Both the position numbers and the translations under genes were made by a program. A stretch of DNA of 64,000 bases, taken from the IMG/VR virus record IMGVR_UViG_3300037507_000754, positions 1,367-65,366 of that record; one strand, written 5' to 3'. Within the stretch, counting starts at the first letter, position 1; each line of letters opens with the position of its first letter. Positions 5,930-7,827 of this stretch are shown piece after piece. The notes beneath the pieces are model-generated. The model was not told the DNA's origin. It saw only the letters and a list, made by a program, of their open reading frames with translations, and did not search any database. The DNA comes from a virus. Lineage: Duplodnaviria > Caudoviricetes.

Positions 5930-6250
5930 TCAGGCGAAATACCGTCCGACGATGACTTGATCTTCGTCAGCGACGAAGCGGAACAGCACGCCGCTGAAGA
6001 ACGTCTCCGACACGATGCCGTCCCACCCGCCCGCGGCGAGCTTGAACAGGGGTCCCGGAGGCAGGCGGGACTGCTCCAACACCTGCGTGTCATACACGTC
6101 GTACCAGTGGCCCTTGTACTGCACGAACCGGGGGCAGTACCTCTCGTCCTCGTTGACGTAGTCGAAGTCAGCCCGGACGTTGTCCGGTAGCTCTGCGAGG
6201 CACGCCATCTGGCGCTGGTGATTGTTAGTGATGATGTTCACGTTACTCAC
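5930..6250 (-). CDS. hypothetical protein, first gene of the early operon
   Basis: GTG start with AGGAG RBS; 106 aa. Confidence 0.7.
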   Translation of the reverse strand: MSNVNIITNNHQRQMACLAELPDNVRADFDYVNEDERYCPRFVQYKGHWYDVYDTQVLEQSRLPPGPLFKLAAGGWDGIVSETFFSGVLFRFVADEDQVIVGRYFA

Positions 6251-6254
6251 TCCT

Positions 6255-6670
6255 ATACTGGGTTTGATGCACGGGGGCCGAAGCCACCGCGTCGCAGCAC
6301 ATGCTGCCTAGATCGCTCGTTGCACCGGCTCCGCCTCTAGGCGTTGCACCGGCTCCGCCTCTAGGCGTTGCACGCTGGGCGTGCACCCACCGGACGATTT
6401 GCGCGAAGCGATCTAGGCAGGGGGCGAGTGATTTCCACCCCCTGCGAGACCTGCCGTTTAAGGTCGGCAACCCGCCACGTGGGATTTACGTGGGCCTTCC
6501 GATGCACGTTGCCGTGCATCACCTCCACAGGATTCTTACCTGTCAGAGATCGCAGGGATCAACCACCCGCCCGGGTGAAAGATAGATATGCACCTCCTTC
6601 GGTGCGTTGGGCATGTGTTGATGTACTAGCGGCGTAAGCCGCCGCCCGATGTATAACATCGAGCGCAGAG
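6255..6670 (-). ncRNA. candidate large structured leader or ncRNA
   Basis: No credible ORF; about ten inverted repeats, including a perfect 14-bp stem (6304-6317/6407-6420) and a multibranch junction closed by 6440-6447/6550-6557. Confidence 0.6.
6318..6373. repeat. 24-bp tandem repeat, about 2.3 copies (cgttgcaccggctccgcctctagg)
   Basis: Exact duplication seen in the sequence. Confidence 0.95.
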
Positions 6671-6688
6671 ATAAATTGTTAAAGAGCG
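6671..6688 (-). promoter_or_regulatory. boxA antitermination element (CGCTCTTTAACAATTTAT)
   Basis: Matches the rRNA-operon boxA GCTCTTTAACAA plus its TTTAT extension; about 30 nt downstream of the predicted start site. Confidence 0.85.
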
Positions 6689-6725
6689 TGTCGTGTGTTT
6701 GAGCTGATCTCCCACCGACATATCT

Positions 6726-6754
6726 ATTATATATCAATCTCGTCCTTATGTCAA
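6726..6754 (-). promoter_or_regulatory. consensus sigma70 early promoter
   Basis: TTGACA (6754-6749), 17-nt spacer, TATAAT (6731-6726). Confidence 0.92.
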
Positions 6755-7827
6755 GCATTTCGTTCGTCAATAGCGTCCTCCAATTCGTCGGTCTTAGTGG
6801 TGGTGACGTTGGTGTCGGCAGGGGTCGGGGCTGTGGTCGGTGTCGGTGTGGTGTTGGTGGTGTGTACCTCAGCCCAGCGCAGCCAGTGTGCATGCTGGTC
6901 CTCCGTCAGCTTCGAAGCGTGCACCCTCCCTTCAGTCACCTTCAGCCCCAACGCTGACATCAACATCACGTTGCCCGACTCGTAGGGCAAGGTCTCCCCT
7001 CCGGGGGAACGGATGTCAATGCGCCCCACCTTCGCCATGCGTGGGTCTTTCTTGTTGACGTATGCGTCATAGATCAGCACCTCGCCCGTCACTGGGCACC
7101 GCTCAGGGTAGATCAGCTCGCCCTCGTAACGCATGAGTGCGTCAGCCGCTGAGAACTTCCCGGCCAACTTCGGCGTGCCCACAGGCGACCGCAACCACAA
7201 CTGATAGGAGTGTGTACGCGCCAGCATCGTCATCCTCACGACGTGCTTCCACCTCTCATCATCTTTGTAGTCAGCACGCGCTTTGGGTACCGGTGCAACC
7301 TCCGGCGCACCGAGCGACTTCACAATGACGGTCTCACTCACGTCGTACATCATGGCAAGCACGCCTATCGCTTCCTTCGGCACCGGGGCATCCGCAGGCA
7401 AGCCCAACTTGCCCATCATGCGCTCAGCACTCGATCGAATGGCACGCTTGCGGATGCCCAACAGGACGTTGCTCTTGACGGCGTAGGGGCCTGAGCCCAT
7501 CGCTTGCAGGTCGTTGCCCAGGGCTTCGAACACGGGCAGGTGGATCATCTCGTTGAACACGTCAGCACGCTCAGGCGTGTCCGCAGGCGGCAGGGCGTTG
7601 CCCTCAGCGACGTAGGCACGCAGCGCCTCAATGGCGAAGCCAGGGACGGCGTACTGGTAGCTGACGAAGTACCAGACTTGATCCCCTCCGGTCCCTCCGA
7701 GGCCGTAGGCAGGCACGGGCTTTCCCCACACGGCGCGGGGCATGTGGGCGTTGTGCCGGAAGAGTGGCACCCCCTTGGGAGAGAGGTAGACGCGGCTGAG
7801 GAGCGAGGAGGGGAAGATGAGGTCCAT
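6751..7827 (-). CDS. hypothetical protein with a degenerate HNH-like C-terminal region and a Thr/Pro tail
   Basis: 358-aa ORF; YPERCPVTG...GRIDIR...YESGNVMLMS. Confidence 0.6.
   Translation of the reverse strand: MDLIFPSSLLSRVYLSPKGVPLFRHNAHMPRAVWGKPVPAYGLGGTGGDQVWYFVSYQYAVPGFAIEALRAYVAEGNALPPADTPERADVFNEMIHLPVFEALGNDLQAMGSGPYAVKSNVLLGIRKRAIRSSAERMMGKLGLPADAPVPKEAIGVLAMMYDVSETVIVKSLGAPEVAPVPKARADYKDDERWKHVVRMTMLARTHSYQLWLRSPVGTPKLAGKFSAADALMRYEGELIYPERCPVTGEVLIYDAYVNKKDPRMAKVGRIDIRSPGGETLPYESGNVMLMSALGLKVTEGRVHASKLTEDQHAHWLRWAEVHTTNTTPTPTTAPTPADTNVTTTKTDELEDAIDERNA

What the first reader, a model, noticed from the sequence alone, without database searches (positions are those of the whole stretch)
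6255..6670. ~430-nt densely structured non-coding RNA between the strongest promoter and the first early gene
Seen: no plausible ORF, but nested inverted repeats throughout. These include the 14-bp perfect stem ctgcctagatcgct/agcgatctaggcag (6304-6317/6407-6420) and tgcacgc/gcgtgca (6369-6385). An 8-bp stem ccctgcga/tcgcaggg (6440-6447/6550-6557) closes a junction holding four hairpins: tgccg/cggca, ccacgt/acgtgg, gatgcacg/cgtgcatc and acagg/cctgt. Further stems are cacccg/cgggtg, gcacc/ggtgc, gcggc/gccgc and cgatgt/acatcg. I do not recognise it as tRNA, tmRNA or a riboswitch. Inference: it would be the first and probably very abundant phage transcript, so it may be an undescribed ncRNA acting as a put-like RNA antiterminator, a defence-protein decoy, or a processed RNA.
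Basis: partly seen in the sequence, partly recalled or inferred. Interest (0 to 1): 0.85.

Follow-up and report, generated by a model that had tools for sequence, protein, structure and literature searches.

The report
Structured boxA-guarded phage early leader RNA
The gene-free stretch is the roughly 480-base, heavily folded front end of a lake phage's main early transcript, and parts of its fold are kept in related phages, so it is a real RNA element whose job is still unproven.

Summary
Window 6242-6719 on the minus strand is an ORF-free leader. It lies behind a perfect sigma-70 promoter (6754-6726) and the window's only rrn-type boxA (6687-6676). It folds far better than shuffles (z -7.20), while flanking coding RNA gives z -1.31 and -0.34.

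Rfam gave no hit for the window or its relatives. Related IMG/VR phages share the layout: promoter, 5' hairpin, boxA, then a 400-650 nt ORF-free leader.

- The 14-bp stem (P2): 8 of 11 scored pairs change on both sides, across 13 leaders.
- The acagg/cctgt hairpin: a bulged 12-bp hairpin with a UAAGARN loop, where 6 of 12 pairs change on both sides.

G-U pairs place both on the minus strand. The four-hairpin junction occurs only in this lineage, and its closing stem competes with conserved helix P1.

Best reading (0.5): a cis-acting early-operon leader. BoxA loads host Nus factors, and the long P2 duplex beside the first ribosome-binding site acts as a processing or stability element, as in T7 and lambda early leaders. 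A free-standing RNA role is not excluded.

This scan noted the same family on other DNA (e1-6303003) and similar boxA-led RNAs in phiEco32-like phages. No expression data were found.

The parts
6726..6754 (-). sigma-70 promoter: TTGACA, 17-nt spacer, TATAAT (12 of 12). The -35 hexamer overlaps the stop codon of upstream ORF 6751-7827.
   Evidence: A promoter beginning TTGACATA is kept in the relatives.
6690..6719 (-). 5'-terminal hairpin of the predicted transcript (GUCGGUGGGAGAUCA...CGAC), placed before boxA as in rrn leaders
   Evidence: Folds. A hairpin is predicted at this place in the relatives folded, with different stem sequences (L023 less clearly). Judged by eye only; no formal pair count was made.
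6676..6687 (-). boxA, GCTCTTTAACAA. It is the only copy in the 64-kb window.
   Evidence: 1 match at up to 1 mismatch; 0.10 expected. BoxA-like sequences within 2 mismatches are present in most relatives.
6564..6665 (-). Four lineage-specific hairpins: cgatgt/acatcg, gcggc/gccgc, gcacc/ggtgc, cacccg/cgggtg
   Evidence: They are shared only with L002/L034 and with a roughly 97% relative in runs X19/X20. That relative's changes here fall in loops or linkers.
6521..6550 (-). Family consensus loop is UAAGARN.
   Evidence: Alignment A4: 12 pairs, 97.9% of cells paired, 6 pairs with changes on both sides, 0 of 500 shuffles reach the score. Model R1 finds one copy per leader. Sense strand 139 of 142 cells paired, antisense 106 of 142. 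In that alignment the window's own outer stem sits one column out of register.
6501..6520 (-). Hairpin GAUGCACG-GCAA-CGUGCAUC with a GNRA loop on the sense strand. It occupies the place held in most relatives by a hairpin with a GARAGA loop.
   Evidence: I7. The X19/X20 relative has GCGA in the loop, so GNRA is kept. The GARAGA hairpin in relatives shows 7 distinct stems in 13 leaders, all paired apart from the outermost position in two.
6452..6493 (-). Two further lineage-specific hairpins: ccacgt/acgtgg and tgccg/cggca
   Evidence: Folds. No independent homologues.
6440..6557 (-). Predicted junction closed by CCCUGCGA/UCGCAGGG. Its 3' arm (6447-6440) overlaps the 5' arm of P1 (6445-6438).
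   Evidence: Ensemble probability 0.91 for the closing stem and 0.00 for P1. Forcing P1+P2+P3 costs 4.7 kcal/mol. Covariation cannot test it.
6417..6445 (-). P1: GCAGGGGG, loop, CCCCCUGC
   Evidence: I9. The inner 5 G-C pairs are invariant in 13 leaders while the loop varies from 4 nt to about 35 nt. There is no covariation.
6304..6420 (-).
   Evidence: Alignment A3: of the 11 scored pairs, 8 have changes on both sides, about 97% of cells are paired, and 0 of 500 shuffles reach the score. Arms pair in all 14 leaders listed. Sense strand 139 of 143 cells paired, antisense 118 of 143.
6318..6385 (-). 24-nt tandem repeat (two full copies, 6318-6365) plus the small hairpin tgcacgc/gcgtgca, in the apical part of P2
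   Evidence: D1. L002 lacks 38 nt here. Contigs of DNA runs X11 and X17 break at 6320-6371. This part is not conserved in the family.
6294..6307 (-). P3: GCAGC-AUGU-GCUGC
   Evidence: Invariant in 13 leaders, and it tolerates a hairpin inserted in its loop in 4 of them. Its GCAG can instead extend P2.
6242..6293 (-). Hairpin with a UUCG loop (GGC-UUCG-GCC), then the SD AGGAG (6254-6250) of the first gene
   Evidence: The change at 6290 in L002 fits a G-U to A-U switch in an alternative register.
5930..6241 (-). First gene behind the leader (103 aa from GTG 6241; 106 aa from GTG 6250). No known family.
   Evidence: 156 homologues at E <= 1e-5, none with a Pfam domain among the 120 listed. The Atlas search was uninformative.

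Best explanation
The region is the structured, untranslated 5' leader of the phage's main leftward early operon, made by the host RNA polymerase (RNAP) from the window's minus strand.

**Shown.**
- A consensus sigma-70 promoter, a 5' hairpin and a consensus boxA are present.
- About 420 nt of hairpins follow, with an exceptional folding z-score.
- Two helices carry covariation and G-U pairs specific to this strand.
- A conserved three-helix module (P1-P2-P3) sits close to the first ribosome-binding site. It abuts it in most relatives; in the window a UUCG hairpin lies between.
- Different relatives have different first genes behind the same kind of leader.

**Inferred mechanism.**
1. BoxA recruits NusB/NusE and the other host Nus factors to the polymerase. 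This makes it resistant to Rho and to the terminator-like hairpins further down the operon. It also keeps the 5' end tethered to the polymerase, which helps the RNA fold.
2. The long P2 duplex serves as an RNase III-type processing or stability element. It would separate the boxA-bound leader from the message and leave P3 as a protective 5' hairpin before the first ribosome-binding site. This matches promoter-boxA-R0.3-gene 0.3 in T7 and pL-nutL-RNase III site-N in lambda.
3. The invariant UAAGARN hairpin and the invariant P1 and P3 sequences are probably sites for a host or phage factor. That factor is unknown.
For: - Promoter 12 of 12; single boxA.
- z -7.20 against -1.31 and -0.34 for flanking coding RNA.
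- No Rfam family.
- The same layout in the relatives.
- P2 covariation and UAAGARN hairpin covariation. Strand tallies favour the sense strand.
- The first gene differs between relatives, so the element belongs to the operon, not to one gene.
- Downstream of the leader to window position 1 there is no strong promoter, and two distinct terminator-like hairpins lie on the sense strand.
- In the roughly 97% relative in X19/X20 and in L002, 9 of 10 changed positions are unpaired in the fold. The tenth is compatible with pairing in another register.
- T7 has promoters A1-A3, a boxA at 813 and gene 0.3 at 925. That boxA acts as an antitermination element (passage of PMC3709561).
- The boxA-Nus complex loops the RNA and is genetically tied to RNase III in rRNA maturation (passages of PMC4807359 and PMC8632103).
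Against: - There is no evidence of transcription, of 5' or 3' ends, or of cleavage.
- RNase III recognition cannot be predicted from sequence. In the window P2 carries a large, variable apical insert.
- Most of the window's hairpins (6452-6665) occur only in this lineage, so their fold rests on energy and a handful of near-identical relatives.
- The equilibrium fold of the window does not contain conserved helices P1 and P3. Either the prediction or the simple three-hairpin picture is incomplete.
- Invariant loops and helices suggest a specific partner that this explanation does not name.
- The host is unknown, so I assume rather than show that its Nus factors read this boxA.
Confidence: 0.5

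Rival explanations
1. A free-standing non-coding RNA. The structured part is cut out of the early transcript and acts in trans, for example as a decoy or sponge for a host defence or RNA-binding protein. BoxA would serve only to get it made, as for rRNA.
For: - Invariant loop UAAGARN and invariant P1 and P3 sequences, beside freely covarying stems, point to a specific partner.
- The UAAGARN and GARAGA hairpin pair recurs behind boxA in two much more distant, AT-richer phages with different downstream genes.
- P2 could act as an excision stalk.
- The layout resembles an rRNA operon: hairpin, boxA, then structured RNA (passage of PMC8632103).
Against: - No terminator or second processing stalk marks a separate RNA. 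The folds run straight into the first ribosome-binding site.
- Most of the window's hairpins are not conserved across the family.
- Later checks of analogous finds in phiEco32-like phages put this kind of reading at 4-15% (scan notes; not independent evidence).
Confidence: 0.15
2. An RNA-only processive antiterminator of the put or EAR kind. The folded leader itself binds the transcribing polymerase and makes it terminator-resistant.
For: - It sits directly behind the early promoter, upstream of a long operon with terminator-like hairpins.
- Hairpins with invariant loops are conserved.
Against: - A consensus boxA is already present and conserved in the family, which gives a simpler route to antitermination.
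- The conserved hairpins lie 130-330 nt from the promoter, not next to it.
- I had no put or EAR model or sequence to compare with, beyond the blank Rfam scan.
Confidence: 0.1
3. A conformational switch, either riboswitch-like or protein-responsive. Competing helices that share GCAG/CUGC words (junction stem against P1, extended P2 against P1 and P3) would pass a signal to the first ribosome-binding site or to a termination decision.
For: - The arms overlap: 6447-6440 with 6445-6438, and CUGC/GCAG is shared by P1, P2 and P3.
- The two global folds differ by only 4.7 kcal/mol in a 480-nt RNA.
- These words are invariant in 13 leaders.
Against: - No conserved pocket-like junction was identified.
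- The junction stem exists only in this lineage and possibly in the L008 type.
- No terminator follows the module.
- Near-equal alternative folds are common in long GC-rich RNAs.
Confidence: 0.1
4. A DNA-level element, such as a replication origin, a packaging site or protein-binding palindromes and iterons, rather than an RNA.
For: - A perfect 14-bp palindrome-like repeat and a 24-nt tandem repeat.
- A three-base loop replaced by its reverse complement in a relative (6653-6655).
Against: - G-U pairs make both conserved helices much better on the sense strand. Antisense pairing is 118 of 143 and 106 of 142 cells, against 139 of 143 and 139 of 142 for the sense strand.
- The tandem repeat is not conserved in the family.
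- The element lies inside a transcription unit, directly behind a consensus promoter and boxA.
Confidence: 0.03

Closest known systems
Phage T7 early control region (host promoters A1-A3, boxA, RNase III site R0.3, gene 0.3)
   Same: Strong host-type promoters, an untranslated leader and a consensus-like boxA. T7 has ACGCTCTTTAACAATC at 813, 112 nt before gene 0.3. A folded region lies just before the first early gene. The T7 boxA is described as an antitermination element (PMC3709561 passage).
   Different: - No sequence similarity.
- The window has about 420 nt of folds between boxA and the ribosome-binding site, against about 100 nt in T7.
- The window has one promoter, not three.
- The conserved UAAGARN hairpin and the P1-P2-P3 module have no T7 counterpart that I could see.
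- The R0.3 cleavage site is recalled, not annotated in the record I read.
Lambda pL-nutL-N leader with its RNase III site
   Same: Early promoter, boxA, then a large stem between the antitermination site and the first gene's ribosome-binding site. In lambda, RNase III cleavage there relieves repression of N translation by the tethered complex. I saw only the titles, in the reference list of PMC5725501; the content is recalled.
   Different: - No boxB-like pentaloop hairpin directly after boxA. The hairpin 9 nt downstream has a UAU loop.
- No recognisable N protein.
- The hairpin-then-boxA order is that of rrn leaders, not of nut sites.
E. coli rrn operon leader (boxB-boxA-boxC, Nus/SuhB complex, RNase III stalk)
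   Same: Very strong promoter, a hairpin before boxA, and a boxA identical to the consensus. A long structured untranslated RNA follows, with long duplexes that could serve as processing stalks (passages of PMC8632103 and PMC4807359).
   Different: - The product runs into protein-coding genes.
- I saw no GU-rich boxC (a motif I recall, not one I tested).
- No similarity to rRNA (Rfam blank).
Large structured RNAs behind boxA in phiEco32-like coliphages
   Same: Consensus host promoters, each followed by boxA, driving a long, ORF-free, highly folded early RNA absent from Rfam (scan notes).
   Different: - A different phage group and habitat.
- Those RNAs are about 0.8-0.9 kb with several promoter-boxA cassettes.
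- No sequence match between this leader and GenBank phages.
- I did not test whether the UAAGARN hairpin occurs there. The paper named in those notes was not held.
HK022 put and Bacillus EAR antitermination RNAs
   Same: Cis-acting folded RNAs near the start of long operons that promote read-through (recalled).
   Different: They work without boxA. They are much smaller, roughly 70-120 nt (recalled). No comparison was possible beyond the blank Rfam scan.

Membership tests
Any Rfam 15 family | Score at or above the family's gathering threshold | tested here: not met
   - 0 matches in the whole window.
- In 6100-6900 at E <= 10, only two chance-level matches, both outside the folds.
- 0 matches in 7 relatives at gathering threshold.
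- Nothing within the leaders of 5 relatives at E <= 1.
rrn-type antitermination leader | Consensus boxA shortly after a strong promoter | tested here: met
   GCTCTTTAACAA at 6687-6676, about 33 nt into the predicted transcript, behind a 12-of-12 promoter.
rrn-type antitermination leader | Hairpin (boxB) upstream of boxA | tested here: met
   5' hairpin at 6719-6690 in the fold. Hairpins are predicted at the same place in the relatives folded. The order of elements is taken from a passage of PMC8632103.
rrn-type antitermination leader | boxC after boxA, and dependence on NusB/NusE/SuhB | not testable with these tools
   I saw no GU-rich boxC by eye (motif recalled). Factor dependence needs experiments.
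Lambdoid nut site | boxB hairpin with a GNRA-like pentaloop a few nucleotides after boxA | tested here: not met
   The hairpin 9 nt after boxA (6665-6643) has a 3-nt UAU loop. The hairpins after boxA differ in every relative.
Lambdoid nut site | An N-type arginine-rich antiterminator encoded just downstream | tested here: inconclusive
   The first ORF has no family and is not arginine-rich by eye. The rest of the operon was not searched for such a protein.
T7-type early leader | Host promoters, boxA, then an RNase III site before the first gene | tested here: inconclusive
   Promoter and boxA are met. A conserved long duplex, P2, stands before the ribosome-binding site. Cleavage by RNase III cannot be tested here.
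Riboswitch or attenuator | Conserved sensor domain with mutually exclusive helices that control a terminator or ribosome-binding site | tested here: inconclusive
   Mutually exclusive helices exist. No terminator or anti-SD partner specific to them was identified, and no known aptamer matched.
tRNA or tmRNA | ARAGORN detection | tested here: not met
   0 genes in the window.

The most novel reading that the evidence does not exclude
The UAAGARN hairpin, its partner hairpin (GARAGA loop in relatives, GNRA in the window) and the invariant P1-P2-P3 module form a new class of boxA-associated phage RNA. It would bind a specific host factor or the polymerase and act as an RNA in its own right, for example as an RNA arm of the antitermination complex or as an early decoy against a host defence. 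It would be made first in infection by copying the way the cell makes rRNA.
Probability: 0.12. Interest if true: 0.85.

Novelty: new variant of a known kind. Interest (0 to 1): 0.55.

Why it matters
Early leaders that carry boxA are known from T7 and the lambdoid phages. There the RNA between boxA and the first gene is short, and it is understood as a nut site plus an RNase III hairpin.

Here an uncultured group of freshwater and wastewater phages keeps a much larger leader. It has at least three covarying helices and several invariant loops that match no catalogued RNA. One two-hairpin motif recurs behind boxA in distant phages with different genes.

That gives a defined RNA family to model and a concrete set of mutations to test. 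It also bears on a wider question raised by several finds in this scan. Do lytic phages borrow the cell's rRNA transcription mode only to protect long untranslated leaders, or to make functional RNAs? If the conserved loops bind a host factor, this would be a new handle on early host takeover.

Tried and rejected
- **GenBank phages.** Near and distant DNA searches with the window's leader found nothing. The distant search with L005's leader also found nothing.
- **Metagenome scan.** None had the expected context or any similarity to the leaders.
- **Genome collection.** It gave one short contig, L027, that holds a relative of the first gene. The R1 hairpin model found no match in it.
- **Viral-contig scans.** The P3 word gave 33 stretches, of which 8 carried the leader's features and only L041 was a new member; the rest look like chance. 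The promoter plus 5' hairpin pattern added L181, which is cut before P1. A window-specific word found only L034, the same contig as L002. So the window-type junction has no independent homologue in that collection.
- **Contig look-up.** The 156 protein homologues therefore could not be turned into more leaders.
- **P1-P2-P3 model.** I built only the hairpin model R1.
- **Sequencing runs.** No RNA holder is listed. 18 lake-water DNA runs hold the stretch almost unchanged. Two wastewater runs labelled RNA-Seq are flagged 'probably DNA' and are kept as contigs. They say nothing about expression. I used them only for the sequence differences of a relative. Two of the six differences in X20's record were not listed, so I did not see them.
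- **Comparison with L034.** This shows uniformly high identity over 8700-6200, so the leader is not more conserved than its flanks in that pair.
- **First gene.** The Atlas search gave no usable lead.
- **Alternatives rejected.** TnpB or IscB guide RNA, retron, group II intron and CRISPR-like readings were dropped. The neighbouring proteins show no such domains and Rfam is blank.
- **Repeated promoter.** A repeated promoter for a phage polymerase was rejected because the conserved words are single-copy in the window.
- **Literature.** PMC10690425 reports 8,495 unnamed candidate structured RNAs of 29-151 nt mined from IMG/VR 3 (passages). Pieces of this leader may be among them. Its supplements are closed, so I cannot say the motifs are unpublished. 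My claim of 'not described' rests on Rfam and on the searches only.

Full report
**What is there.** The window is bases 1367-65366 of a 65,366-nt virus record.
- Genes left of about 9400 run on the minus strand.
- The flagged stretch lies between minus-strand ORF 6751-7827 and a small ORF that ends at 5930.
- On the minus strand a perfect TTGACA-17-TATAAT promoter spans 6754-6726.
- The only boxA-like word in the window, GCTCTTTAACAA, lies at 6687-6676. Another first-reader note on this window (e1-6252615) had pointed to it.
- The first gene probably starts at GTG 6241 behind AGGAG 6254-6250. This matches the 103-aa form in the protein collection.
- The leader is therefore about 478 nt, from roughly 6719 to 6242, read on the minus strand.

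**Is the structure more than chance?**
- The minus-strand RNA folds at -224.1 kcal/mol, z -7.20 against dinucleotide shuffles. The plus strand gives z -4.84.
- Two flanking 500-nt coding stretches on the same strand give z -1.31 and -0.34.
- ARAGORN and Rfam find nothing.
- The mechanical ORFs that cross the region have no family where tested (two tested). Indels in a near-identical relative break the frames they fall in.

**Relatives.**
- Searches with the first gene's protein and with DNA words found leaders in IMG/VR contigs.
- L002 (the same contig as L010, L013 and L034) is about 99% identical in the leader. It lacks 38 nt: one 24-nt repeat unit plus a small hairpin.
- All other relatives share only the layout: a promoter beginning TTGACATA, a 5' hairpin, a boxA-like word, then 400-650 nt without a conserved ORF before the first gene. 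Their internal modules are mosaic.
- The first gene differs among them.
- The window's middle part, 6452-6665, has no independent homologue in IMG/VR.

**Conserved helices.**
In a 13-sequence alignment, 8 of the 11 scored pairs change on both sides, about 97% of cells pair, and no shuffle or slid control comes close. The interior ranges from 1 to 83 nt. The window's tandem repeat is a lineage-specific expansion there.
- *P1 and P3.* P1 (GCAGGGGG...CCCCCUGC) and P3 (GCAGC...GCUGC) flank P2 without linkers. They are invariant, yet they tolerate large loop insertions.
In 12 leaders, 97.9% of cells pair and 6 pairs change on both sides. In that alignment the window's own outer stem is one column out of register. 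A covariance model finds exactly one copy per leader and none elsewhere in the window, although these were its training sequences.
- *Wider reach.* A wider scan plus the model added two close members (L189, L199). It also added two AT-richer, clearly more distant phages (L194, L200). In those two, the same hairpin and a neighbouring hairpin with a GARAGA loop again follow a boxA-like word, ahead of different genes. The GARAGA hairpin has 7 distinct, fully paired stems in 13 leaders, apart from the outermost position in two. The window has a GNRA hairpin at that place.

**Strand.** G-U pairs make both helices much better on the sense strand than on its complement: 139 of 143 against 118 of 143 cells for P2, and 139 of 142 against 106 of 142 for the hairpin. 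Together with the promoter and the gene orientation, this argues for an RNA read from the minus strand and against a duplex-DNA site.

**Small-scale variation.**
- Contigs of two wastewater runs hold a roughly 97% relative of the window-type leader.
- Its changes between 6452 and 6719, together with L002's, fall at 10 positions. Nine are unpaired in the fold, which is about 60-65% paired overall. The tenth fits a G-U to A-U switch in an alternative register.
- One change turns the GCAA loop into GCGA, which keeps the GNRA form.
- This is modest support for the lineage-specific hairpins. It comes from very few events.

**What remains uncertain in the fold.**
- The junction's closing stem (6557-6550 with 6447-6440) overlaps P1's 5' arm.
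- CUGC/GCAG words are shared by P1, P2 and P3.
- At equilibrium the window prefers the junction (probability 0.91) and an extended P2. P1 and P3 are not predicted. Forcing P1+P2+P3 costs only 4.7 kcal/mol.
- Either the real fold follows the family pattern, or the leader switches between folds. I cannot tell which.

**Function.**
- The element belongs to the operon, not to a particular gene.
- Between the leader and window position 1 there is no strong promoter, and two terminator-like hairpins lie on the sense strand. Replication genes continue on the same strand at the other end of the window.
- A consensus boxA behind a consensus promoter is the arrangement of rrn operons and of T7's early region. 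There boxA acts in antitermination.
- The boxA-Nus complex also tethers the leader to the polymerase and is linked to RNase III processing.
- The most economical reading is therefore an antiterminated, structured early leader. Its conserved long duplex beside the ribosome-binding site would act in processing, stability or release of the message, as in T7 and lambda.
- The invariant loops and helices hint at an additional, unknown partner. That keeps alive the bolder reading of an RNA with a role of its own.
- Earlier reports of this scan on phiEco32-like phages describe the same general arrangement. Later checks rated the bold reading low. I treat this as a caution, not as evidence.
- A first-reader note on another genome (e1-6303003) appears to describe a member of this same family.

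**Novelty.**
- The kind is known: a boxA-bearing phage early leader.
- This family, its size and its conserved hairpins are not in Rfam.
- They were not found in the papers I could search.
- A catalogue of IMG/VR candidate motifs exists whose lists I could not open.
- The nearest cultured phages by terminase are HTVC023P-type aquatic phages at 47% identity or less. The host is unknown.

Noticed in passing
window 6318-6385; L002:2843-2979: The 24-nt tandem repeat inside P2 differs in copy number between the window and its 99% relative. Contigs of two DNA runs break exactly there (6320-6371), which suggests copy-number heterogeneity in the population.
   Followed up: partly
window 6653-6655: In the wastewater relative, the three-base loop ATA of the cgatgt/acatcg hairpin reads TAT, its reverse complement. 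This is the signature of a hairpin-loop flip at the DNA level.
   Followed up: no
window 6676-6687 with 6248-6256; also L007, L008: Minimum-energy folds repeatedly pair boxA (GCUCUUU) with the ribosome-binding site of the first gene (AGGAGUG or GGAGAGU), closing the whole leader into one loop. This may be trivial pyrimidine-purine complementarity. Alternatively, Nus binding to boxA could free the ribosome-binding site.
   Followed up: partly
L009:1970-2281 (same contig as L025, L029): The first 41 residues are 98% identical to the window's first gene. The ORF then continues as an unrelated sequence with CxxC...CxxC motifs, which looks like a recombination joint inside the gene.
   Followed up: no
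L189:13288-13360: A roughly 20-nt unit (CAACGUCAACCGACAAA-like) is repeated three to four times inside this relative's leader. This is another lineage-specific repeat expansion.
   Followed up: no
L007:558-813 (-): A sub-threshold Rfam match to Pseudomonas sRNA P6 (32.4 bits; gathering score 50; E 2e-05), about 1.8 kb upstream of that relative's leader.
   Followed up: no
L188, L190, L191, L192, L195, L196, L197: The scan word GGTAAGAANCC-N8-GCGTAGG also hits a conserved stretch in unrelated viral contigs. The flanks are near-identical in L190, L191 and L195, and again in L192 and L196. It looks like coding sequence, and it does not match the hairpin model.
   Followed up: partly
window 6751-6754: The stop codon of the upstream 358-aa ORF overlaps the -35 hexamer of the consensus promoter. 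No terminator separates that ORF from the leader, so upstream transcription could read into it.
   Followed up: no
L200:3240-3500; L194:4690-4930: The two distant phages that share the two-hairpin motif encode mutually similar first proteins (both contain a GNY..L.E stretch). These are unrelated to the window's first gene.
   Followed up: no
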